Of a stretch of 64,000 nt of DNA, positions 797 to 34,044 are shown piece by piece (the stretch's first letter is position 1; the number at the start of each line of letters is the position of its first letter). Location: assembly GCA_017428485.1 (NCBI GenBank), contig JAFRQT010000026.1, positions 8,699-72,698 on the forward strand, in the 5' to 3' direction. A model generated the notes under the pieces. That model had not been told where the DNA came from and did not search any database. It saw only the letters and a program-made list of their open reading frames with translations. The DNA comes from Bacilli bacterium. GTDB taxonomy: Bacteria > Bacillota_I > Bacilli_A > RF39 > UBA660. A program made the translations under genes and the position numbers.

Positions 797-1045
797 ATGA
801 ATCAAGAAAAACTAAACAGTATAATAGGTAAAAATATTAAAAAATATAGAAAAATTTATAATAAAAATGGAAATAAAATGACTCAAGAAAAATTAGCAGA
901 ATTAATTAATGTTTCTGTTTCACATATAAGTAGTTTAGAAAGCAACAAAACAAAAAAAGGAATAAGTATCTCAAATTTATATAAAATATCAATTGTTTTA
1001 GATGTGCCAATTACTAAATTATTAGAGGAAAATTATGAAGATTAA
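797..1045 (+). CDS. XRE-family helix-turn-helix transcriptional regulator (small)
   Basis: ORF 779..1045, with the in-frame ATG at 797 giving MNQEKLNSIIGKNIKKYRK. HTH core MTQEKLAELINVSVSHISSLES. Its 3' end overlaps the next ORF start by 11 nt. Confidence 0.7.
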   Translation: MNQEKLNSIIGKNIKKYRKIYNKNGNKMTQEKLAELINVSVSHISSLESNKTKKGISISNLYKISIVLDVPITKLLEENYED

Positions 1046-1577
1046 TTCTATATTATTAAAAAATTGCATAAATAATTCCTCTGATATAAAAGTTTTATTA
1101 AAAAATAAAAGCATAAATAGATTATTACGTAATATTGATGCTAAAAAAATTATTAAAGTTAATTCCCACTTAATTCATAAAAAAGATATAACTTTGATTG
1201 AGCAATTCATATTTAATCTTGATAATTATATTAGTTTTATTAAAAATTTATTAAATATTAGCCCCCTTCAAACTAGATATATTATAGATTTAACTTTAGA
1301 TAACAAATACAACAAAATATTATTATCAGATGTGTATTTTTATGATAATAAAGACTATTATATTAACGAATTTAAAAAATTGTTCATGTATAGATATATT
1401 AAAAATGTAAATAAATTAAAAAAATATATTAATATAGACAAACTCGATTTTGATAGTCTTATATTAAAATTAAATTATAATAAAAATAAGGCTCATTTCT
1501 ACTTTGAAGATATAAGTAAAAACTTGCCTTATTATATTGATATTATCGATTATTTAGAAAACACATCTAACATATGA
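1035..1577 (+). CDS. hypothetical protein (180 aa, basic, helical-looking), translationally coupled to the upstream XRE gene
   Basis: Long ORF whose ATG lies inside the XRE stop region. No recognisable motif. Its 3' end overlaps the convergent Fic gene by 28 bp. Confidence 0.45.
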   Translation: MKINSILLKNCINNSSDIKVLLKNKSINRLLRNIDAKKIIKVNSHLIHKKDITLIEQFIFNLDNYISFIKNLLNISPLQTRYIIDLTLDNKYNKILLSDVYFYDNKDYYINEFKKLFMYRYIKNVNKLKKYINIDKLDFDSLILKLNYNKNKAHFYFEDISKNLPYYIDIIDYLENTSNI

Positions 1578-2623
1578 TTATATGAGAAAGTAACTCTATT
1601 AGTTCCTTTCTTTTTTTCTTTTGTTAAATATCCATGTTCTACTAATTTATTTAATACTTTATTTACAGAATTTATGTGTAATTTGCATTCAGTTACAACA
1701 TCATTTGTTGTAAAACACAATTTCTTAACAATGTAAGGATATACTTTATATATAGTTGTTCCTCCAATTACTTTCTTAAATTCTTCTAAATCTTCTTGAT
1801 ATATCTTGTTAAGTTTTTTAATTCTTTTAATATTAATACTGCATTGATCAATTATACATTCTAACATTAATTTTATAAATGCTTCTATGTTATCAGATTC
1901 ATTACTTAATAATGTAAAATAAGTGTTTTTTAAATTATCTATGCTTTCACTAATAAATAATATCGGCGTTTCCTTTTTATAATGTGATATTTGTATCGGA
2001 ATAAACATTCTTCCAAGTTTTCCATTTTCGCTAACATAAGGATGTATTCTCATAATTTGATAATGGGTAATACATGTATCTAAAAACACTTCGCTAGAAT
2101 AGTTATTCATGTAATCACATAAATTTTTCATATACCCATTTAATTCAGTATGTATAGGAGGAATAAATGACACACTTGAGCCAGCAAGACCAGGTTTTAA
2201 AATATAAGTTTGTATTTTTCTTAAATGCCCGCTCCCTTTAGTTTTATTATTTTTAGAACAATTATTAAATATTATTTTATTTATTTTATTAAAGTGATCA
2301 ATTTCATAATTAGTTCCATTAGTTAATGTTACTGCACTAAGTAACGCTAAACGCATGTTATTAAATATAATTGTTTCATTTGATTTATTTTTATATGGTA
2401 TTAAAAACATCTCTTCTTTTTCTAATTTACTATTATCAATTTTAAAAGAATAATATGTATCATTAACAAAAGCAGTTTCTAAAAAGCTTTTATAATCATA
2501 TACCATATCTTTTAGATAGCCCTTATATTCTCCATATGCCTCTCTTGCATTGCATAAAAGTCTTAACAGTTCATCAGAAAAATTATACTTAATTGGTAAT
2601 TTTTGTGCTTTATATGGTTCCAT
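1550..2623 (-). CDS. Fic/DOC family protein with C-terminal winged-helix-like tail; degenerate Fic motif
   Basis: HPYVSENGKLGR sits where the Fic motif HxFx(D/E)GNGRxxR is expected. Fic_N-like N-terminus. AAGGAG RBS upstream of the ATG. Confidence 0.75.
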   Translation of the reverse strand: MEPYKAQKLPIKYNFSDELLRLLCNAREAYGEYKGYLKDMVYDYKSFLETAFVNDTYYSFKIDNSKLEKEEMFLIPYKNKSNETIIFNNMRLALLSAVTLTNGTNYEIDHFNKINKIIFNNCSKNNKTKGSGHLRKIQTYILKPGLAGSSVSFIPPIHTELNGYMKNLCDYMNNYSSEVFLDTCITHYQIMRIHPYVSENGKLGRMFIPIQISHYKKETPILFISESIDNLKNTYFTLLSNESDNIEAFIKLMLECIIDQCSINIKRIKKLNKIYQEDLEEFKKVIGGTTIYKVYPYIVKKLCFTTNDVVTECKLHINSVNKVLNKLVEHGYLTKEKKKGTNRVTFSYNHMLDVFSK

Positions 2624-2663
2624 TTTACATTCTCCTTACATTATAATAATAACATATAATTAT

Positions 2664-2701
2664 AAAAAAATATACATATTTATTTTGAAATATGTATATT
2701 T
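2664..2701 (-). terminator. rho-independent terminator after the 121-aa gene
   Basis: Perfect 14-bp arms AAATATACATATTT / AAATATGTATATTT with a 6-nt loop, followed on the minus strand by a U-run. Confidence 0.5.
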
Positions 2702-3065
2702 AATAAGGGTTTGGATAATCTAGCAGTCCTAGTGCATTGCCTTCTAGCCAATAAATCTTATCATTCTTTATTTCTAATTTATAATAAATTTTATATTTTT
2801 GTGACTCGCCATTCTTATCATAATAGAATATTAAATCTGTAATACCTTCTTTGTTTATCTTGAATGTCCATTTTTTATCCACTTGCTTCATTAATTTCAA
2901 ATTTTCATTATTAATTTCATATGTCCATAACTCTGCAGTAGTATCTTTAAGATTATTATAATCAATAGTAATCTCATTTTCATATTTGTATAAATATTTT
3001 TGTGGATATAATAATATTAAAAGAGCTATTGCAATAGTAACTCCAAATATAATAAAGTATCTCAT
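2700..3065 (-). CDS. hypothetical membrane-anchored/secreted small protein
   Basis: N-terminal hydrophobic segment FIIFGVTIAIALLILL followed by a beta-rich-looking domain. No recognised motif. Confidence 0.5.
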   Translation of the reverse strand: MRYFIIFGVTIAIALLILLYPQKYLYKYENEITIDYNNLKDTTAELWTYEINNENLKLMKQVDKKWTFKINKEGITDLIFYYDKNGESQKYKIYYKLEIKNDKIYWLEGNALGLLDYPNPY

Positions 3066-10713: not shown

Positions 10714-11220
10714 CTAAAATAAATTTTTTATTACTTTGATTAATTTAAAATCATATTTCACTTCTTCATCATCTAAATTTTCATCTATCATACATAATGG
10801 CGGATATAATATACACCAATAATTATTGCCTTTTCCTTCTCCAATTTCTATAACTAAACTTTCGTATTCTCCTTCTTTAAAAATTTGATTATTATACTTT
10901 TTTTTAGGAAAATGATTCATACCATAGCTTATGTTATAGTTCATATTGTAATTATTCTCAGTAAATACTTGATTAATATCATTTTGAATATTCTCAATAT
11001 TATTAATAATATTTTCTCGTGTCATTTCAATGTTATCTTCTTTTTTAAATAGAGTTTTAGATAAAACATTAACTACTTTCATTTTCATAATTATATCAAT
11101 AGAGGAATTACTATTAGCTATTACTCTAAATCTAATAGCATCTTCAGTTAAATTATTTTGATTATCTGATAAGAATATTATTACTAAAATAATAAATAAT
11201 CCTAAAAATATTTTTTTCAT
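10714..11220 (-). CDS. spoIIR: stage II sporulation protein R
   Basis: Signal peptide, IRFRVIANSNS and NYWCILYPPLCMID, matching the SpoIIR signature blocks. Confidence 0.8.
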   Translation of the reverse strand: MKKIFLGLFIILVIIFLSDNQNNLTEDAIRFRVIANSNSSIDIIMKMKVVNVLSKTLFKKEDNIEMTRENIINNIENIQNDINQVFTENNYNMNYNISYGMNHFPKKKYNNQIFKEGEYESLVIEIGEGKGNNYWCILYPPLCMIDENLDDEEVKYDFKLIKVIKNLF

Positions 11221-15634: not shown

Positions 15635-16831
15635 TTATTCTTCAATTTTTGTTCCGCATTCACTACAGAACTTTCCAGTAACTACTGCTCCGCAATTTGG
15701 ACAAGTTTTTTCTTCAGATTTTGGCTCTTGTGTTTGTTCATTTGCTTTTTCTTCAGCTGATTCTTCAACTTTTTCTTCTGGTTTTGCAAATAATGTTCCC
15801 ATTTCAGGTTGTTGATTTCCTGGATTGTATGGTGGAACATCGGACCCTTGATTTGCAGCATTCATCATTGCTCCAGCAGCACCTGATGCCATGTTCATTC
15901 CCATGAATCCCATCATAGCGCCATTTGCATTACTTGATGCATTTCTAAGGGCATCTGCAGAAGCAGAAGCCATTAATCCAGATTGTAAATTCTTATTAGA
16001 GAATATTGTTGCTTCATCAATCTTATTAACTTTAACCATTGATTCATCTGTTAAGTTAATATCCCCTAATGCAACATCTGTAACTTCAAGTCCATAATTT
16101 TTTCTCCATGATTCATCTAAACATGTATTCATTTCATCAGAAATATCGCTATTATATAGACCAATATCTCCAAATGAAACTTTATGTTTTCTCATTACAA
16201 TTGATATTGCTTGAGTTAATTTTTCAACAAATTTTGCTTGCAATTGAGTTCCAATTATTTCATCATAAGTTACTGTATCTTTTGGATTTGCTCCAATTAC
16301 ACTATTTACAAGTAATACTGGATCTACAACTTTAAATGCATATTCTCCAAAGAATGTAACCTCTAACATACCATATTTTTCATCAGTTATTTTTTTTGGC
16401 TGTGGTGAACCAAATTTATTACCAGTTATATTTAGTAAATTTACATAGTAAACTCTTTGATCTTTTGCGGCTTGTCCACCATATGTAAAACGTTTACCAA
16501 TTGTTTTAATAGTATTTAAAATTCCTTCACCAAGTCCTCCTGTAAAAATACTTGGTTCACTACCAGTATCAAATGTATATGTTCCACTTTCTGCAGTAAA
16601 TTCTTTTACTTCTCCATTTTCAATGATCATCATTGCCATTCCTTGTGGTACAGCAATTCCACTTCCGTTTGATATTACTCCTTCAGTAGGATTAGTATTT
16701 CCTTTTCCGTGATTTACTACACCTCTTTGAATAAGAACATCTTTTTCAATTGTAGGACAGGTAACAAATTCTTTAAATTGGTCACCTAATGTAGATGATG
16801 CTGCACTTACTAGTGCTTTAATTAATCCCAT
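15635..16831 (-). CDS. SPFH/band-7-like protein with C-terminal zinc ribbon (YdjI/COG4260-like)
   Basis: MGLIKALVSAA.. N-terminus typical of the family. C-terminal CPNCG..CSECG ribbon after a low-complexity linker. Confidence 0.72.
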   Translation of the reverse strand: MGLIKALVSAASSTLGDQFKEFVTCPTIEKDVLIQRGVVNHGKGNTNPTEGVISNGSGIAVPQGMAMMIIENGEVKEFTAESGTYTFDTGSEPSIFTGGLGEGILNTIKTIGKRFTYGGQAAKDQRVYYVNLLNITGNKFGSPQPKKITDEKYGMLEVTFFGEYAFKVVDPVLLVNSVIGANPKDTVTYDEIIGTQLQAKFVEKLTQAISIVMRKHKVSFGDIGLYNSDISDEMNTCLDESWRKNYGLEVTDVALGDINLTDESMVKVNKIDEATIFSNKNLQSGLMASASADALRNASSNANGAMMGFMGMNMASGAAGAMMNAANQGSDVPPYNPGNQQPEMGTLFAKPEEKVEESAEEKANEQTQEPKSEEKTCPNCGAVVTGKFCSECGTKIEE

Positions 16832-16865
16832 AAACTTACCTCTTTTCTATCAAATTAATTATAGC

Positions 16866-16904
16866 AAAAAAGAAAAAAGAAAAAAAGTACTAATTAGTAC
16901 TTTT
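16866..16904 (-). terminator. rho-independent terminator after the noc-like gene
   Basis: 16-bp palindrome AGTACTAATTAGTACT followed on the minus strand by a long U-rich run. Confidence 0.55.
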
Positions 16905-17955
16905 CAATTTCAATTGTTATTTGATATTTATCTGCTAATTCTATTTTTTCTGTTTTAATATTATTTTTTCCAATTGAATAGTTATCAATAATATTACTTA
17001 AATAATTATATATTTCTTCTGAATTATCTTTTTTCTCTATTTCAATTGGTGTAGGTCTTGATTCAATATATTGCTCATCGCTGTTTGTACTCAATTGAAA
17101 TGGATTAATAGCCTCTTCGGTTGAAGTTGTTTCAGTTAATGCTTCGGTATGTTCCTCTTCTATTTTTGTATTTTCTTTTATTATATTTTTTTCATCTTCA
17201 TCTTCTATTGGTTGAATATCAGGTATTCCTATATCGAGAAATTCTATAGTTTCTTCTTTTGCTTCTGGTTTTTGATCATTTTTATTTTCTGGTCTTAAAA
17301 ATCTTTGAATTTCCTCTGGTATATAGTTTTCTTGTTTTATATTATCTCTCATTAATAATAAATTAATTTCTTCTTCTGTTTGTTTAACTGTTAATCTATC
17401 ACTAATTATTTTCTTTAATAAACTTTTTTGTAAATCTTCATTATTTAATGTTAATAAACTTCTAGCGTGCCTTTCAGATATTTGATTGTATAAAAGAGCA
17501 TCTTTTATTTCTTTAGGAAGACTTAACAATCTCATTTTATTAGCTATTGCAGATTGACTTATTCCAAGTTTAGAAGCTATTTCTTCTTGAGTAAATCCTC
17601 TATCTATTAATTTTTTATATGATTGAGCTTCTTCTATTACAGACAAATCTTTTCTTTGCAAATTTTCAAGTAATGCTATTTCTGCACTAGTATTATCATC
17701 TGTATTATTTAGTACTGCTGGTATTGATTTTAAACCAGCTAAACAAGCAGCTTTGTATCTTCTTTCCCCTGCAATTATTTCATATTTTTCGCCAATTTTT
17801 CTAACTACTATTGGCTGAATAACTCCATACTTAATAATAGATTCGGACAAATTATTTAATTCTTGCTCATCAAAAGCAAGCCTAGGTTGAAACCTATTTG
17901 GCAATATGTCTTCAACATTTATATAGTAAATTTTTTCGTTATTATTTTCTTCCAT
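16894..17955 (-). CDS. noc: ParB/Noc-family CTPase DNA-binding protein, Noc-like recognition helix, atypical termini
   Basis: PNRFQPR and GERRYKAA (ParB N-domain/CTP motif). HTH region GISQSAIANKMRLLSLP..ISERHARSL. Position next to rsmG. An in-frame TAG 21 nt upstream of the ATG excludes a longer N-terminus. Confidence 0.8.
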   Translation of the reverse strand: MEENNNEKIYYINVEDILPNRFQPRLAFDEQELNNLSESIIKYGVIQPIVVRKIGEKYEIIAGERRYKAACLAGLKSIPAVLNNTDDNTSAEIALLENLQRKDLSVIEEAQSYKKLIDRGFTQEEIASKLGISQSAIANKMRLLSLPKEIKDALLYNQISERHARSLLTLNNEDLQKSLLKKIISDRLTVKQTEEEINLLLMRDNIKQENYIPEEIQRFLRPENKNDQKPEAKEETIEFLDIGIPDIQPIEDEDEKNIIKENTKIEEEHTEALTETTSTEEAINPFQLSTNSDEQYIESRPTPIEIEKKDNSEEIYNYLSNIIDNYSIGKNNIKTEKIELADKYQITIEIEKY

Positions 17956-18020
17956 AGCCTTTTCCCTTTTATCCTATTCTATTATCATTTTAATTCATTT
18001 TAATTATTTAATCAAGAATA

Positions 18021-18725
18021 TTATTTATAACTTTTCAATATAATATTATAATTTCTTGGATATTTTATATTATTTTTGTTAATTTTTTTATAAATAGGTA
18101 TCGTTCTATTTGCGTTATTAATAGGTAATTTGTATTCGATTTTATTAATAAGTCTAATATTTAATTCTTTTTCTAAATATGAATATTTATTTATTTCTTC
18201 ATCACAGTTTGATTTTAATGGAATTATTAATCCACTTATTTTTAATGAATTAACACTTAATTCTAATATTATAGGTATAGAAGTTACAGCTCTACATGTG
18301 ATTAAATCAAATTTTTCAGTATTCTTTCTACTATAATTTTCCATTCTATCATTTATAACTACCACATTATTTAATTTTAGTTCTTTAATTACTTCATTTA
18401 AAAAAGTGCATTTCTTATTATTTGATTCAATCAGTGTTATTTTTAATTTATTAAATATTATTGCTAGTGCTAATCCTGGAAATCCTGCTCCAGTTCCAAA
18501 ATCGCATAAACTCGAATAATTATTTAAATTTACTGATTTTGAAAGACATAAAGAATCATAAAAGTGTAATAAAAATACTTCTTTTTTTTCTATGATAGTA
18601 GTCATATTAAATTTTTTATTCCATTCAACAAGTAAATTAAAGTACTTTTCAAATTTTAAATATATTTCATCATCTATAATTATATTTATTTTTTTACATT
18701 CACTAATAAACTCTTCTTTATTCAT
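18021..18725 (-). CDS. rsmG: 16S rRNA (guanine527-N7)-methyltransferase
   Basis: GidB-type sequence with SAM motif DFGTGAGFPGL. Conserved position after mnmG. Confidence 0.88.
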   Translation of the reverse strand: MNKEEFISECKKINIIIDDEIYLKFEKYFNLLVEWNKKFNMTTIIEKKEVFLLHFYDSLCLSKSVNLNNYSSLCDFGTGAGFPGLALAIIFNKLKITLIESNNKKCTFLNEVIKELKLNNVVVINDRMENYSRKNTEKFDLITCRAVTSIPIILELSVNSLKISGLIIPLKSNCDEEINKYSYLEKELNIRLINKIEYKLPINNANRTIPIYKKINKNNIKYPRNYNIILKSYK

Positions 18726-23923: not shown

Positions 23924-24046
23924 TTATTTTGATAATTCTTTTCTTCCTTTTGCTCTTCTTGATTTTAATACTGAACTACCTCTTCTAGATAAAAAACCTG
24001 ATGTTTTACTTTTTTTACTATTATTAGGTTGAAATGTTCTTTTCAT
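23924..24046 (-). CDS. rpmH: 50S ribosomal protein L34
   Basis: Not in the ORF track. Hand translation gives [48 protein letters not shown] upstream. Confidence 0.93.
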
Positions 24047-24395: not shown

Positions 24396-25787
24396 ATGAG
24401 TAATGATGCTATATGGGAAAAATTTTTAACTAGAATAAAATCTAAAGTTTCTCTGATGTCATTTAATTATATTTTTAAAGATCTTAGACTTTACTCATAT
24501 GAAAATTCAAAAATAACAATAGTTATACCTTCAAATGAGTTGCTACTCCAAAATATAAATAAAAATTATAATGATATAATTGAAGAAATATTAAATGATA
24601 TTACAAATGATACATGTGAGATAAAATATGTTTTTGATAAAGATATAGACAAAATATTATTGGATAATAAAATTGTAAATATTGATGAAATTGAAACTAA
24701 AAAAGAAAAAAATGATTTAGATAAATATAATTATAGTAGCAATTTTAATCCAAAATATACTTTTGATACTTTTATTGTTGGTGAATCTAATAAATTAGCT
24801 TATGGAACAGCATTATCTGTAGCAAAAAATCCTGGTAAATTATACAATCCTTATTTTATATATGCTAAAAGTGGACTTGGTAAAACTCATTTAATGCATG
24901 CTATTGGTAATTATATTGTTAGTCATTCAGATAAAAAAGTTTTATATATTACAGCAGAACAATTTACTATTGATTATAGATCTATTTTAAATTATAAGAA
25001 TAAAAATGATAATAATTTTTCATATTTAGAAGCTTTTAGAGAAAAATATAGAAATGTTGATGTTTTAATGATTGATGACATTCAATTTTTAGAAAATATG
25101 CCTAAATCTCAAGTAGAATTTACAAATACATTTAATAGTTTATATGAAAATGAAAAACAAATAATTATTGCTTCTGATACATCTATTAATGATTATAAGA
25201 AAATTGAAGAAAGACTGAAAACAAGATTTAGATGGGGTTTAACTGAATCAATTAATCCACCTGAAATAGAATTAAAGAAAAATATTATAAGAAATAAAAT
25301 TAAAATTAATAATTATGATTTAGATATTAGTGATAACGTAGTTGATTATATTGCAAATAACTGCGGTAGTGACATTAGAAATTTAGAAGGTGCAGTTGTA
25401 AGAATAATTGCATATAAAGCTACATTTAACATTCCAGTTGTTACTTTAGAAATAGCACAAGAAGCATTAAAAGAATTCGTTCCTACTGTTGTTTATAGTA
25501 CTAATTCTGTTACTAAAATAATTGAAATAGTAGCTAAATACTTTAATTTAGATTCTGCAATGTTAAAAGGCAAAATGAAAAAGAAAAATGTTACAGATGC
25601 TCGTGCAATAGCGATGTATTTAAGTAGAAACATGACTGATGAAAGTTTAGAAAGGATAGGATTAGAATTTGGAGGTAGAGATCATTCAACAGTAATATAT
25701 TCTTATGAGAAAATATCTAATGAATTAAAAACTAATATTCAGTTACAACAAGAAATAAAAAAATTAAAAGATAAAATTTGTGAATAA
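24396..25787 (+). CDS. dnaA: chromosomal replication initiator protein DnaA
   Basis: AAA+ Walker A GKSGLGKTHL, Walker B LMIDDIQF, and a domain IV DnaA signature (GGRDHSTVIYS). Confidence 0.97.
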   Translation: MSNDAIWEKFLTRIKSKVSLMSFNYIFKDLRLYSYENSKITIVIPSNELLLQNINKNYNDIIEEILNDITNDTCEIKYVFDKDIDKILLDNKIVNIDEIETKKEKNDLDKYNYSSNFNPKYTFDTFIVGESNKLAYGTALSVAKNPGKLYNPYFIYAKSGLGKTHLMHAIGNYIVSHSDKKVLYITAEQFTIDYRSILNYKNKNDNNFSYLEAFREKYRNVDVLMIDDIQFLENMPKSQVEFTNTFNSLYENEKQIIIASDTSINDYKKIEERLKTRFRWGLTESINPPEIELKKNIIRNKIKINNYDLDISDNVVDYIANNCGSDIRNLEGAVVRIIAYKATFNIPVVTLEIAQEALKEFVPTVVYSTNSVTKIIEIVAKYFNLDSAMLKGKMKKKNVTDARAIAMYLSRNMTDESLERIGLEFGGRDHSTVIYSYEKISNELKTNIQLQQEIKKLKDKICE

Positions 25788-27070: not shown

Positions 27071-27121
27071 ATTTGACAAAATTCGATAAATATCGACAAA
27101 TGCTATATGTTATTGTATAAA
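27071..27121 (+). promoter_or_regulatory. three phased 10-bp direct repeats overlapping a promoter for the ComK-family gene
   Basis: ATTTGACAAA / ATTCGATAAA / TATCGACAAA at 27071-27100. TCGACA (27093-27098), a 17-bp spacer, then the extended -10 TGTATAAA (27114-27121). Confidence 0.45.
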
Positions 27122-27148
27122 ACATTATTTAAGAAAGGGGGAAAATTC

Positions 27149-27607
27149 ATGAATTACGAAATTAATTATGATACACAGCTTATTATGCCCATAAATGAAC
27201 AGCAATCTAAAATCATAGAAAATGAAGATGAATATATTATTAATAATACAACTCTTGAAATAATGGAGCATAGTTGTGAATATTTTGGCAGTTCATTTCA
27301 GGGAAGAAAAGATGGAACTAAAAAATTACTTGGTATTACTCATAAGTCACCTATAATAGTTGAAGAAAGTAATAAAGTAATATTTTTTCCTACTGTTTCG
27401 CCTGAAAATGAGGAATGTTCTTGGATAAATTTAGAATCTATTGATAAGTATTATAAAATTAATTCTAACAAATCAGCCATATTATTTAAAAATGGAACTT
27501 TGATAGAATTTAATATTTCTTATGGCTCTTTAAGTAATCAAATTTTAAGAGCAACTAGATTAAAATATGTACTTGAAGAAAGAACAGAAAAAAAGAGTAA
27601 TTTTTAA
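27149..27607 (+). CDS. comK: ComK-family competence transcription factor homologue
   Basis: SCEYFGSSFQGRKDGT..THKSPIIV..IFFPTVSP..CSWI..ISYGSLSNQILRA parallels the B. subtilis ComK blocks. GGGGG RBS before ATG 27149. Confidence 0.78.
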   Translation: MNYEINYDTQLIMPINEQQSKIIENEDEYIINNTTLEIMEHSCEYFGSSFQGRKDGTKKLLGITHKSPIIVEESNKVIFFPTVSPENEECSWINLESIDKYYKINSNKSAILFKNGTLIEFNISYGSLSNQILRATRLKYVLEERTEKKSNF

Positions 27608-33252: not shown

Positions 33253-33265
33253 TCTTCTTTTTTAA

Positions 33266-33281
33266 TGTTCCACGTGGAACA
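33266..33281. promoter_or_regulatory. parS site 1 (perfect symmetric TGTTCCACGTGGAACA)
   Basis: Exact 16-mer embedded in a 32-bp perfect palindrome at 33258-33289, 6 bp after the gyrA stop. Confidence 0.8.
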
Positions 33282-33298
33282 TTAAAAAATATACAAAA

Positions 33299-33314
33299 TA
33301 TTTCCCGGGAAATA
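33299..33314. promoter_or_regulatory. Noc-binding-site-like palindrome 1 (TATTTCCCGGGAAATA)
   Basis: Exact 16-mer within a 24-bp perfect palindrome at 33295-33318. Matches the B. subtilis NBS consensus ATTTCCCGGGAAAT. Confidence 0.7.
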
Positions 33315-33357
33315 TTTTATAGTAGAATACTACTAAAGTGTAAGACAAAGAAAACAA

Positions 33358-33373
33358 AGTTCCACGTGGAACA
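33358..33373. promoter_or_regulatory. parS site 2 (AGTTCCACGTGGAACA, one mismatch)
   Basis: 15 of 16 positions match the symmetric parS. Confidence 0.7.
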
Positions 33374-33468
33374 TTATTTTCTTTAATTATAAAGTTGTTA
33401 AATTAGTTATTTATATAGCTAGTTTGTTATAACATATTATTAAGTTGATAATATAATTTTATTTTTAA

Positions 33469-33484
33469 TGTTCCACGTGGAACA
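33469..33484. promoter_or_regulatory. parS site 3 (perfect)
   Basis: Exact 16-mer within a 30-bp perfect palindrome at 33462-33491. Confidence 0.8.
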
Positions 33485-33606
33485 TTAAAAATAATACTTT
33501 TGTTAATTACTTATTCGATAGTATATTAAATAATAATTATAATTTTTTAATATAATAATCATTTTTATATGATTAATTGCTTAATAATATATTATTATAT
33601 AACTAA

Positions 33607-33622
33607 TGTTCCACGTGGAACA
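33607..33622. promoter_or_regulatory. parS site 4 (perfect)
   Basis: Exact 16-mer within a 28-bp perfect palindrome at 33601-33628. Confidence 0.8.
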
Positions 33623-33830
33623 TTAGTTTTCTTTTTCAATAAACTAGATCAAATACAGTTATTTTATATATGATGTTTTATATTTTAACTACCGCATTAA
33701 TAATCTATATAGATTATATTTTTAATTTACATCTAAATTAAATATTAACTTATTATATTTACATTAGTATCATTTATATATATTTACAGATACTTTTCAT
33801 GTTAAATATTGTATAAAAATTATTGAAAAT

Positions 33831-33846
33831 TATTTCCCGGGAAATA
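33831..33846. promoter_or_regulatory. Noc-binding-site-like palindrome 2 (TATTTCCCGGGAAATA)
   Basis: Second exact copy of the 16-mer, about 530 bp from the first. Confidence 0.7.
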
Positions 33847-33938
33847 TTTTTTTAAATATTATGTTAACTTTTAATATTTAATTACTAAAAAATGAAATAA
33901 TACTTGATTATTAAAATAAAATAATATAAAATAATTTT

Positions 33939-34010
33939 GTGCAATGAGAAATAAATGAAACAGGTCAGAATCGGAAGATAGCAGCCTTAAATTTGTTTCT
34001 CATGTGCACA
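33939..34010 (+). ncRNA. ffs: signal recognition particle RNA, short 4.5S-type (no Alu domain)
   Basis: Single hairpin with an 18-bp closing stem (GTGCAATGAGAAATAAAT / ATTTGTTTCTCATGTGCAC). Apical CAGGTCAGAATCGGAAGATAGCAGCC is the domain IV consensus with a GGAA tetraloop. TTGATT-17-TAAAAT promoter at 33904-33932 and a T-run at 34013-34018. Confidence 0.75.
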
Positions 34011-34044
34011 TATTTTTTATATAAGGATGCGAATAAGTGTTTGT

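What the first reader, a model, noticed from the sequence alone, without database searches (positions are those of the whole stretch)
15635..18725. Orphan Noc-like ParB-family protein: no soj/spo0J neighbours, no N-terminal membrane helix, ~100-aa acidic insertion
Seen in sequence:
- The only ParB-family gene in the window (16894-17955) sits directly after rsmG.
- It is followed by a terminator and then an SPFH/Zn-ribbon gene, not by soj-spo0J as in the canonical rsmG-noc-soj-spo0J arrangement.
- Its motifs PNRFQPR, GISQSAIANKMRLLSLP and ISERHARSL resemble B. subtilis Noc. As I recall it, Noc has PNRFQPR, GKGQSTIANKLRLLKLP and ITERHARAL, whereas Spo0J has PNPYQPR, GKSRPHIANHLRLLTLP and LSMGHGR.
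- At the four positions reported to switch parS versus NBS specificity (ParB R/T/A/G versus Noc Q/K/K/R, from memory of published mutational work), this protein reads Q, K, S, R.
- The protein starts MEENNNEKIYYINVEDILPNRFQPR, and an in-frame TAG 21 nt upstream forbids any extension. It therefore lacks both the Noc amphipathic membrane-targeting helix and the ParB ParA-interacting peptide.
- About 100 acidic, low-complexity residues separate the DNA-binding core from a Noc-like C-terminal end (KYQITIEIEKY).

Inference: either a Spo0J/Soj pair is encoded elsewhere, or this single protein serves both the adjacent parS and NBS sites. Membrane tethering, if any, must work differently from B. subtilis Noc.
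Basis: partly seen in the sequence, partly recalled or inferred. Interest (0 to 1): 0.75.

Follow-up and report, generated by a model that had tools for sequence, protein, structure and literature searches.

The report
Helix-less, long-linker Noc orthologue
[quoted passage not shown] It is not a hybrid protein doing two jobs.

Summary
ORF 16894-17955(-) is the only ParB-family gene in the window and in 81 kb around oriC. No ParA/Soj gene lies there. It follows rsmG and precedes an SPFH gene. It cannot be extended at its N-terminus. It carries a ~110-aa acidic, disordered insert.

I read it as a true Noc orthologue:
- Its best sequence and structure matches are to Noc.
- Its C-terminal domain is Noc-type (hhalign 97%).
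- It groups with Noc in a tree, not with Spo0J.
- 16 of 66 related loci show rsmG-noc-soj-spo0J.
- Two perfect NBS sites lie 15 kb away.

The Q-K-S-R pattern is not a hybrid signature. The whole clade reads Q-K-[N/S/T/A]-R, including relatives with a canonical Spo0J next door. Published mutagenesis shows one lysine suffices for NBS binding, and parS binding needs R173.

The four conserved parS sites therefore imply a separate Spo0J elsewhere in the genome. I could not confirm this.

The notable point is clade-wide. About 80 relatives all lack the N-terminal membrane-targeting helix, reported as conserved in every Noc examined and required for function. All complete ones (74) have a long acidic linker in place of the short basic one. 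This is a new variant of a known kind, of moderate interest.

The parts
16894..17955 (-). noc orthologue ('long Noc'), 353 aa
   Evidence: ORF. TIGR04285 nucleoid_noc is the best NCBIfam hit at 266.7 bits, below the 315 cut-off. Best PDB sequence hit is G. thermoleovorans Noc, 192.7 bits, against 165 for B. subtilis Spo0J. Foldseek top hit is 7nfu Noc. It groups with Noc in an NJ tree.
17656..17937 (-). ParB_N CTPase domain (residues 7-100) with PNRFQPR, GERRYKA and ENLQR boxes
   Evidence: Pfam PF02195, E 5e-32. These boxes are invariant in the family alignment. pLDDT is mostly 77-84 across this domain.
17362..17652 (-). HTH DNA-binding domain (residues 102-198) with specificity residues Q134, K140, S145, R162
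   Evidence: Pfam PF17762. Alignment to Noc and Spo0J. DBD against the Noc-NBS co-crystal 6y93 gives TMt 0.91-0.94 and rmsd 1.1-1.5 A.
17026..17358 (-). acidic, disordered linker (residues 200-310), including the short amphipathic helix IPEEIQRFLRP (212-222) and the INPFQ motif
   Evidence: pLDDT below 50 for 225-309. 28% D+E, net charge -18, and the highest hydrophobic moment in the protein at 211-222. Both motifs are conserved only in the closest relatives.
16897..17025 (-). Noc-type C-terminal domain (residues 311-353; helix, strand, strand)
   Evidence: AF2 predicts H312-327, E333-339, E344-350 with pLDDT about 75. hhalign of the family CTD against the Bacillus Noc CTD gives probability 97.3%, E 2.5e-11. 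No HMM library hit.
16866..16905 (-). AU-rich hairpin plus U-run overlapping the stop codon: probable intrinsic terminator
   Evidence: RNA fold -9.1 kcal/mol, z -2.83. Not found by the GC-dependent scan.
18021..18725 (-). rsmG (gidB), the upstream neighbour
   Evidence: TIGR00138, 147.9 bits, above cut-off. rsmG followed by noc is seen in nearly every related locus that holds enough upstream sequence.
15635..16831 (-). SPFH/Band_7_1 protein with C-terminal zinc ribbon, the downstream neighbour
   Evidence: Pfam PF13421, E 4e-20. Adjacent to noc only in the closest relatives: L004-L006, L208, L210.
33300..33313 (.). perfect Noc-binding site ATTTCCCGGGAAAT, within the 18-bp palindrome ATATTTCCCGGGAAATAT
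   Evidence: By my own arithmetic, about 2e-4 perfect sites are expected by chance at 24% GC.
33832..33845 (.). second perfect Noc-binding site
33266..33622 (.). cluster of four parS palindromes TGTTCCACGTGGAACA (33266, 33358 with one mismatch, 33469, 33607), between gyrA and the SRP RNA gene
   Evidence: none of 100 shuffles reached this count. One search shows the sequence. A similar cluster sits at the same gyrA | SRP-RNA-like sequence - tadA-like gene - dnaX position in relatives L164 and L102.

Best explanation
The gene is the noc orthologue of an uncultured, roughly 24% GC, spore-forming gut member of the Bacilli.

Shown by computation here:
- It has an intact ParB-type CTPase domain.
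- It has a Noc-type DNA-binding domain with the NBS-reading residues Q and R plus one permissive lysine.
- It has a Noc-type C-terminal domain.
- Its cognate NBS sites exist in the genome.
- It belongs to a large clade of 'long Noc' proteins. They have no N-terminal membrane-targeting helix and no helix alpha-2. They carry a 76-477-aa acidic linker where Bacillus Noc has a short basic one of about 25 aa.

Inferred:
- The protein loads as a dimer at NBS sites, binds CTP and closes into a sliding clamp that spreads onto neighbouring DNA, as B. subtilis Noc does.
- It cannot tether that DNA to the membrane by the B. subtilis route. [quoted passage not shown] In B. subtilis, deleting just the first 10 residues (N-delta-10) still allows CTP binding and clamping but abolishes function and membrane binding.
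- Whatever it does to division or origin organisation must therefore go through the acidic disordered linker, either by bulk or charge exclusion or by recruiting a partner, or through a partner protein.

The local absence of soj-spo0J is a lineage-specific gene order, not a sign that this protein replaced Spo0J. The conserved parS cluster is most likely served by a separate R173-type Spo0J encoded outside the 81 kb examined. That last point is inferred, not shown.
For: - Best family, PDB and fold matches are all to Noc.
- The C-terminal domain is homologous to the Bacillus Noc C-terminal domain (sequences).
- In an NJ tree the clade sits beside canonical Noc, apart from both the relatives' Spo0J and B. 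subtilis Spo0J.
- Positional orthology: nearly every related locus with enough upstream sequence has rsmG followed by this gene. 16 of the 66 with at least 2.5 kb downstream also hold soj-spo0J; 15 of these (plus L060, cut off after soj) have the pair immediately downstream and L017 has it 8 kb upstream.
- Specificity residues are Q-K-x-R throughout the clade, and the co-resident Spo0J proteins read R at position 173 and mostly G at 201.
- There are two perfect NBS sites in the window and 11 in 1.3 Mb of relatives' loci, all at 25-32% GC.
- Published data: one K at position 179 or 184 suffices, Q173 reads A1 and R201 reads C6 (PMC7383237).
- The N-terminus is short in all ~80 relatives, and the linker is acidic in 74 of 74 complete proteins.
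- NocN-delta-10 still binds CTP and clamps but does not bind membrane or function (PMC8429893, PMC4331003).
- parS clusters are conserved at the same locus in two distant relatives.
Against: - The score is below NCBI's curated Noc cut-off (266.7 against 315).
- The defining membrane-targeting helix is absent.
- No Spo0J or Soj was found in the 81 kb around oriC, where Bacilli usually keep them.
- A profile search for Spo0J gave no hit traceable to an orphan-Noc contig. That search listed only 120 near-identical top hits, so it is uninformative.
- The tree has no bootstrap support.
- CTP binding, NBS binding and dimerisation are inferred from conserved residues, not measured.
- Both NBS sites lie inside the parS cluster. 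That placement is unusual and unexplained.
Confidence: 0.8

Rival explanations
1. This is the only ParB-family protein in the genome and it serves both the NBS and the parS sites. It would combine Noc and Spo0J roles without ParA.
For: - No second ParB or ParA lies in 81 kb around oriC.
- Position 184 is S, not K.
- The parS and NBS sites sit within one 600-bp intergenic region, with NBS1 18 bp from parS1.
Against: - Q at position 173 and R at 201 are invariant in the clade, and the relatives with an adjacent canonical Spo0J have the same recognition residues.
- In the published combinatorial screen, parS-specific variants always have R173, and R173Q removes the contact to parS G1.
- Here the parS and NBS half-sites differ at three positions, not two.
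- The protein has no ParA-binding peptide.
Confidence: 0.07
2. The protein still bridges DNA to the membrane, but by a relocated or indirect anchor. Candidates are the amphipathic mini-helix IPEEIQRFLRP in the linker and the SPFH membrane-microdomain protein encoded immediately downstream.
For: - Residues 211-222 have the highest helical hydrophobic moment in the protein (0.86) and fold as a short helix in the model.
- The motif is conserved among relatives down to about 53% identity.
- noc-SPFH adjacency is conserved in the nearest relatives.
Against: - The mini-helix is only about 8 residues between two prolines, has net charge 0 and sits in an acidic region.
- Neither the motif nor the SPFH neighbour is found in most of the helix-less clade. 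Neither can therefore be the general solution.
- The SPFH gene lies after a probable terminator.
Confidence: 0.15
3. The clade's Noc does not perform nucleoid occlusion at all. It acts on the origin region instead, for example in control of replication initiation or in origin organisation, as reported for S. aureus Noc.
For: - The only NBS sites in 64 kb are about 9 kb from dnaA, inside the parS cluster.
- In several relatives an NBS recurs at the origin-proximal mnmE/mnmG junction.
- S. aureus Noc is reported to control initiation (PMC5540599; title and abstract seen).
Against: - Only origin-proximal DNA was available, so apparent origin enrichment is a sampling artefact until whole genomes are scanned.
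- The NBS density seen, about 1 site per 120 kb in the relatives' loci, is no higher than I recall for the whole B. subtilis chromosome (roughly 70 sites in 4.2 Mb).
Confidence: 0.2
4. It is a decaying noc remnant with no function, left behind after loss of the partition operon.
For: Missing N-terminal segment, low-complexity insert, and a score below the family cut-off.
Against: - The ORF is intact, and 117 invariant columns, nearly all in the N-terminal 222 residues, are shared by 21 homologues with 61-79% identity to the window protein.
- All CTPase boxes are present.
- The C-terminal domain is conserved.
- The same architecture is kept in relatives that retain soj-spo0J.
- Perfect NBS sites are maintained.
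Confidence: 0.02

Closest known systems
Nucleoid occlusion protein Noc (YyaA) of Bacillus subtilis and Geobacillus thermoleovorans (NCBIfam TIGR04285; PDB 7NFU, 7NG0, 7OL9, 6Y93)
   Same: - ParB_N CTPase domain with the PNRFQPR, GERR and ENLQR boxes.
- HTH domain with Q173 and R201 plus a permissive lysine.
- Noc-type C-terminal domain.
- Position directly after rsmG.
- Perfect ATTTCCCGGGAAAT sites in the genome.
- 45-50% identity over the 200-residue core.
   Different: [quoted passage not shown] The protein starts about 20 residues later.
- The DBD-CTD linker is 111 aa and acidic (net -18), against about 25 aa and basic (+8).
- Position 184 is S instead of K.
- soj-spo0J do not follow the gene.
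- The score is below the curated family cut-off.
Engineered NocN-delta-10 and NocN-delta-26 truncations (Adams 2015, PMC4331003; Jalal 2021, PMC8429893)
   Same: They lack the membrane-targeting sequence and keep the CTPase and DNA-binding domains. The window protein aligns from Geobacillus Noc chain residue 21 onward (7nfu numbering), close to the N-delta-26 boundary.
   Different: Those are laboratory constructs, and N-delta-10 is non-functional in B. subtilis. This is a natural protein, conserved across a whole clade, and it also has the long acidic linker.
Chromosomal ParB/Spo0J (TIGR00180; PDB 6SDK, 1VZ0)
   Same: Same overall fold and CTP-clamp boxes, with 44-46% identity over the aligned core.
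   Different: - Has Q/R instead of R/G at positions 173 and 201.
- Has PNRFQPR rather than PNPYQPR.
- No LG(R/K)GL ParA-binding peptide.
- No ParB-type C-terminal domain.
- No adjacent parA.
- The relatives' true Spo0J proteins form a separate clade.
Incomplete partition systems of S. aureus (Noc plus Spo0J, no Soj) and S. pneumoniae (ParB only)
   Same: They are precedents for Bacilli in which the noc-soj-spo0J trio is broken up and ParA is absent.
   Different: In those genomes a Spo0J is known to be present. From memory, S. aureus Noc keeps the N-terminal helix. Here the presence of Spo0J is unverified.

Membership tests
Noc (nucleoid occlusion protein, TIGR04285) | ParB-type N-terminal CTPase domain with conserved boxes I-III | tested here: met
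   Pfam ParB_N, E 5e-32. FQPR, GERR and ENLQR are invariant in the family alignment.
Noc (nucleoid occlusion protein, TIGR04285) | NBS-specificity residues Q173 and R201, with K/R at position 179 and/or 184 | tested here: met
   Q134, K140, S145, R162. The rule comes from PMC7383237.
Noc (nucleoid occlusion protein, TIGR04285) | Cognate NBS sites (ATTTCCCGGGAAAT) present in the genome | tested here: met
   Two perfect sites in the window and 11 in relatives' loci. Their genome-wide distribution is unknown.
Noc (nucleoid occlusion protein, TIGR04285) | Noc-type C-terminal domain | tested here: met
   hhalign probability 97.3%, E 2.5e-11 over 48 columns. The predicted fold is helix, strand, strand.
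Noc (nucleoid occlusion protein, TIGR04285) | N-terminal amphipathic membrane-targeting helix (residues 1-10), required for function in B. subtilis | tested here: not met
   - Only 18 residues precede PNRFQPR, with an in-frame stop 21 nt upstream.
- The N-terminal hydrophobic moment is 0.1-0.2, against 0.4-0.55 in B. subtilis Noc.
- The helix is absent in all ~80 relatives.
Noc (nucleoid occlusion protein, TIGR04285) | Score at or above NCBIfam's curated cut-off | tested here: not met
   266.7 bits against a cut-off of 315. The match covers profile positions 2-202 of 255.
Noc (nucleoid occlusion protein, TIGR04285) | Orthologous position rsmG-noc(-soj-spo0J) and placement in the Noc clade | tested here: met
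   - rsmG-noc is present here, with no soj-spo0J.
- The full arrangement occurs in 15 related loci, plus L060 where the contig ends after soj.
- The NJ tree places the protein beside canonical Noc, without bootstrap support.
Noc (nucleoid occlusion protein, TIGR04285) | CTP-dependent clamping, membrane recruitment of DNA, inhibition of division over the nucleoid | not testable with these tools
   Needs biochemistry and cell biology.
Chromosomal ParB/Spo0J | parS-specificity residues (R173; G or a small residue at 201) | tested here: not met
   The protein has Q134 and R162.
Chromosomal ParB/Spo0J | N-terminal ParA-interacting motif (L/F/I)G(K/R)G(L/F/I) | tested here: not met
   The N-terminus reads MEENNNEKIYYI. 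The relatives' Spo0J proteins have RRALGRGLEELF.
Chromosomal ParB/Spo0J | Adjacent parA/soj gene | tested here: not met
   No ParA-type ATPase in the window or the flanks fetched.

The most novel reading that the evidence does not exclude
The lineage has truly lost Spo0J and Soj. This helix-less Noc-type protein would then be its only ParB-family clamp, organising the origin through the interleaved NBS and parS sites without ParA and without a membrane anchor. Either it would have acquired parS binding despite Q173, or an unknown factor would read parS.
Probability: 0.07. Interest if true: 0.85.

Novelty: new variant of a known kind. Interest (0 to 1): 0.5.

Why it matters
The current model holds that Noc blocks division by physically bridging NBS-bound DNA to the membrane. 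The bridge is an N-terminal amphipathic helix released by CTP. Adams et al. 2015 found that helix conserved in every Noc they examined, and its deletion abolished function.

Here a large clade of Noc orthologues from gut Bacilli naturally lacks the helix and helix alpha-2. It has swapped the short basic linker for a long acidic disordered one. NBS-reading residues and NBS sites are kept.

Two readings follow. Either nucleoid occlusion can work without direct membrane tethering, or Noc has a second, perhaps older, role. Expressing a 'long Noc' in a B. subtilis noc minCD background, together with liposome and CTP assays, would test this directly.

The work also shows that a non-lysine residue at specificity position 184 is common in natural Noc proteins. 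This agrees with the published 'one permissive lysine is enough' rule.

Tried and rejected
- Finding a second ParB in the source genome. I walked 10 kb beyond each end of the window on the 228-kb source contig and found none. One look-up failed because the ORF start differed from the called gene.
- Spo0J profile search of the 5.8-billion-protein set. I hoped to match contig lengths to orphan-Noc contigs. The 120 listed hits were all near-identical Spo0J of the soj-spo0J-bearing relatives, so the search was uninformative.
- Metagenome scan for the extended parS site. Most hits were unrelated high-GC organisms. Only L102 and L164 were relatives, and neither carried a ParB gene.
- parS search in 83 relatives' loci. 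None was found, even where spo0J is present, so those loci say nothing about parS.
- HMM searches of the linker and C-terminal domain against Pfam and NCBIfam found nothing. The domain was identified only by profile-profile comparison.
- Supplementary tables of Jalal 2020 were searched for the QKSR, QKNR, QKTR and QKAR variants. The tables are not held.
- SPFH neighbour as a conserved partner. Rejected as a general explanation, because it is adjacent only in the nearest relatives.
- Apparent 'KGLI' peptides upstream of some relatives' start codons. I rejected these as a read-through translation of the Shine-Dalgarno region, by inspection.
- Taxonomy look-ups gave no useful placement. Cluster look-ups gave no names.
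Full report
**Setting.** The window is about 24% GC. GC skew flips near position 24000 and dnaA lies at 24396-25787, so the window spans oriC. The leftward strand carries rnpA, yidC, jag, mnmE, mnmG and rsmG, then the ORF in question at 16894-17955(-). After it come an SPFH/Band_7_1 gene with a zinc ribbon, a convergent PBP1A gene, rpoE and prfA. The sequence comes from a 228,751-bp metagenome scaffold. The same protein and gene order recur in two other assemblies.

**The observation.**
- The ORF is 353 aa. The stop-to-stop frame adds only six codons upstream of the ATG.
- Pfam places ParB_N on residues 7-100 and HTH_ParB on 102-198, and nothing on 200-353.
- The gene calls and their Pfam hits for the 10 kb beyond each end of the window list none either, which makes 81 kb around oriC in all.
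- The quoted Noc and Spo0J motifs match the real sequences.
- The four specificity positions read Q134, K140, S145, R162.
- A 10-bp AU-rich hairpin followed by a U-run overlaps the stop codon.

**Noc or ParB?** All comparisons point to Noc.
- The best NCBIfam model is nucleoid_noc at 266.7 bits. This is below the curated 315, because only profile positions 2-202 of 255 align.
- The best solved structure by sequence is G. thermoleovorans Noc at 192.7 bits, against 165 for B. subtilis Spo0J.
- An AlphaFold model has pLDDT mostly between 77 and 88 for the two N-terminal domains. Its top fold match is Noc 7NFU. Its DNA-binding domain overlays the Noc-NBS co-crystal at 1.1-1.5 A.
- The last 43 residues fold as helix, strand, strand. 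They hit no HMM library. A profile of this region from 27 relatives aligns with a profile of Bacillus Noc C-terminal domains at 97.3% probability, E 2.5e-11.
- In a neighbour-joining tree of the 200-residue core, the window protein and its relatives sit beside canonical Noc. B. subtilis Spo0J and the relatives' own Spo0J proteins form a separate branch (no bootstrap).

**Relatives and gene order.** The protein has thousands of homologues of 340-420 aa in gut metagenomes. A scan of species-representative genomes returned 80 loci. Nearly all are uncultured 'Bacilli', 'Tenericutes' or 'Erysipelotrichaceae' MAGs at 25-32% GC.
- Nearly every locus that holds enough upstream sequence has rsmG immediately upstream.
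- Of the 66 loci with at least 2.5 kb downstream, 16 hold soj and spo0J: 15 have the pair directly after the Noc-like gene and one (L017) has it 8 kb upstream. A further locus (L060) ends within soj.
- Those Spo0J proteins are canonical. They have RRALGRGLEELF, PNPYQPR, KSRSHITN, SMGHAR and a ParB-type C-terminus.
- About 35 loci, the window among them, instead run noc, PBP1A(-), rpoE, prfA. The SPFH gene is inserted only in the window's closest relatives.

So the gene occupies the noc slot of the classical rsmG-noc-soj-spo0J arrangement. The missing partners reflect a lineage-specific gene order, not a mis-assembly.

**The specificity residues.** Across the clade the pattern is Q-K-[N/S/T/A]-R, and only two proteins have K at the third position. 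The pattern is the same whether or not a Spo0J (R at 173, G or occasionally S at 201) is encoded next door. The consensus of the whole recognition region is also the same in both groups.

Jalal et al. 2020 showed the following.
- Q173 reads adenine 1 and R201 reads cytosine 6 of NBS.
- A single lysine at position 179 or 184 is sufficient.
- parS-specific variants invariably keep R173.
- The QKAR variant appears in none of their non-functional, hybrid or promiscuous lists.

Perfect ATTTCCCGGGAAAT sites exist both in the window (33300 and 33832) and in ten relatives' loci, despite the low GC. The protein is therefore predicted to be NBS-specific. The S at position 184 is not evidence for dual specificity.

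**The parS cluster.** The gyrA-ffs intergenic region (33253-33932) holds four TGTTCCACGTGGAACA palindromes as well as both NBS sites. Two distant relatives from other metagenomes carry two to four copies of the same extended parS. One has GyrA 65% identical to the window's. In both, the copies sit at the same position beside an SRP-RNA-like sequence, a tadA-like gene and dnaX, and in L164 directly after gyrA. Sites conserved this well need a reader. I therefore think a Spo0J, with or without Soj, is encoded elsewhere (about 80%). I could not show it, because the collection scans were exhausted and the Spo0J profile search was saturated by near-identical hits.

**What is unusual.** Two features depart from canonical Noc.
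- B. subtilis Noc begins MKHSFSRFFG. This amphipathic helix is the membrane anchor. Adams et al. 2015 found the first 15 residues extremely conserved in all Noc homologues they examined, and NocN-delta-10 was non-functional. Jalal et al. 2021 showed that CTP releases the helix. The window protein starts about 20 residues later, roughly where helix alpha-2 of Geobacillus Noc ends. All ~80 relatives share this short N-terminus, including those with soj-spo0J.
- The DBD-CTD linker is about 25 aa and strongly basic in Bacillus. Here it is 111 aa, 28% acidic, net charge -18 and predicted disordered. In the clade it ranges from 76 to 477 aa and is acidic in 74 of 74 complete proteins.

The only amphipathic element outside the folded domains is a short helix, IPEEIQRFLRP. 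It has the highest hydrophobic moment in the protein. It has zero net charge and is conserved only among close relatives.

**Mechanism.**
- Shown by computation: intact CTPase boxes, an NBS-type recognition surface, a Noc-type C-terminal domain, and NBS sites in the genome.
- Inferred: NBS-nucleated, CTP-dependent clamping and spreading as in Noc.
- Inferred: no direct membrane tethering by the known route. Any effect on division or on the origin must go through the acidic linker or through a partner.

The rival explanations are a dual parS/NBS role, a relocated or SPFH-mediated anchor, an origin-specific role, and gene decay. They are weighed in their own section of this report.

**Verdict.** The finding is real. 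As an orphan hybrid ParB it is over-interpreted. It is a Noc orthologue of a previously undescribed helix-less, long-acidic-linker clade. That makes it a new variant of a known kind, of moderate interest.

Noticed in passing
window 33253-33932: One 680-bp intergenic region between gyrA and the SRP RNA gene holds four parS palindromes and both perfect NBS sites. NBS1 lies 18 bp from parS1. A parS cluster at the same position occurs in relatives L164 (four copies) and L102 (at least two copies, with an NBS inside dnaX). Loading sites for two different ParB-family clamps are interleaved, which is unusual and unexplained.
   Followed up: partly
L060:4305, L062:3179, L063:7213, L074:7272, L075:7330: In several relatives that keep soj-spo0J, a perfect NBS sits at the mnmE/mnmG junction, within about 60 nt of the mnmG start and about 2.7 kb upstream of noc. 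The window has no NBS there.
   Followed up: partly
window 17290-17325 (protein residues 211-222): The short helix YIPEEIQRFLRP has the highest helical hydrophobic moment in the protein. It loosely recalls the FSRFF core of the B. subtilis Noc membrane helix. It is conserved only among relatives down to about 53% identity, as are the INPFQ and FNPYKF motifs further along the linker.
   Followed up: partly
window 15635-16831 (-): The SPFH/Band_7_1 protein has a Gly/Ala/Met-rich segment, an acidic tail and a C-terminal CxxC...CxxC zinc ribbon. No NCBIfam family matches it. It is inserted between noc and PBP1A only in the window's closest relatives.
   Followed up: partly
window 33933-34018 (+): Small bacterial SRP RNA (Rfam RF00169, 59.5 bits), followed by a tadA-like deaminase gene, dnaX and recR.
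   Followed up: yes
window 27107-27607 (+) and 10714-11220 (-): A ComK-family ORF lies between dnaN and recF, and a SpoIIR gene lies nearby (Pfam hits on the source contig). This suggests a spore-forming lineage. One circular relative MAG is only 1.2 Mb (L037).
   Followed up: no
window 1035-3065 and L084:11047-12447: A Fic-domain protein sits beside a cluster of small HTH_3 regulators, which may be a toxin-antitoxin or mobile module. Further left on the contig there is a gene for a 3281-aa protein with no Pfam hit.
   Followed up: no
L208:2336-3799: In the 884-kb Hadza relative, a 487-aa ORF with no Pfam hit lies between dnaA and rpmH, inside the expected oriC region. The window has nothing there.
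   Followed up: no
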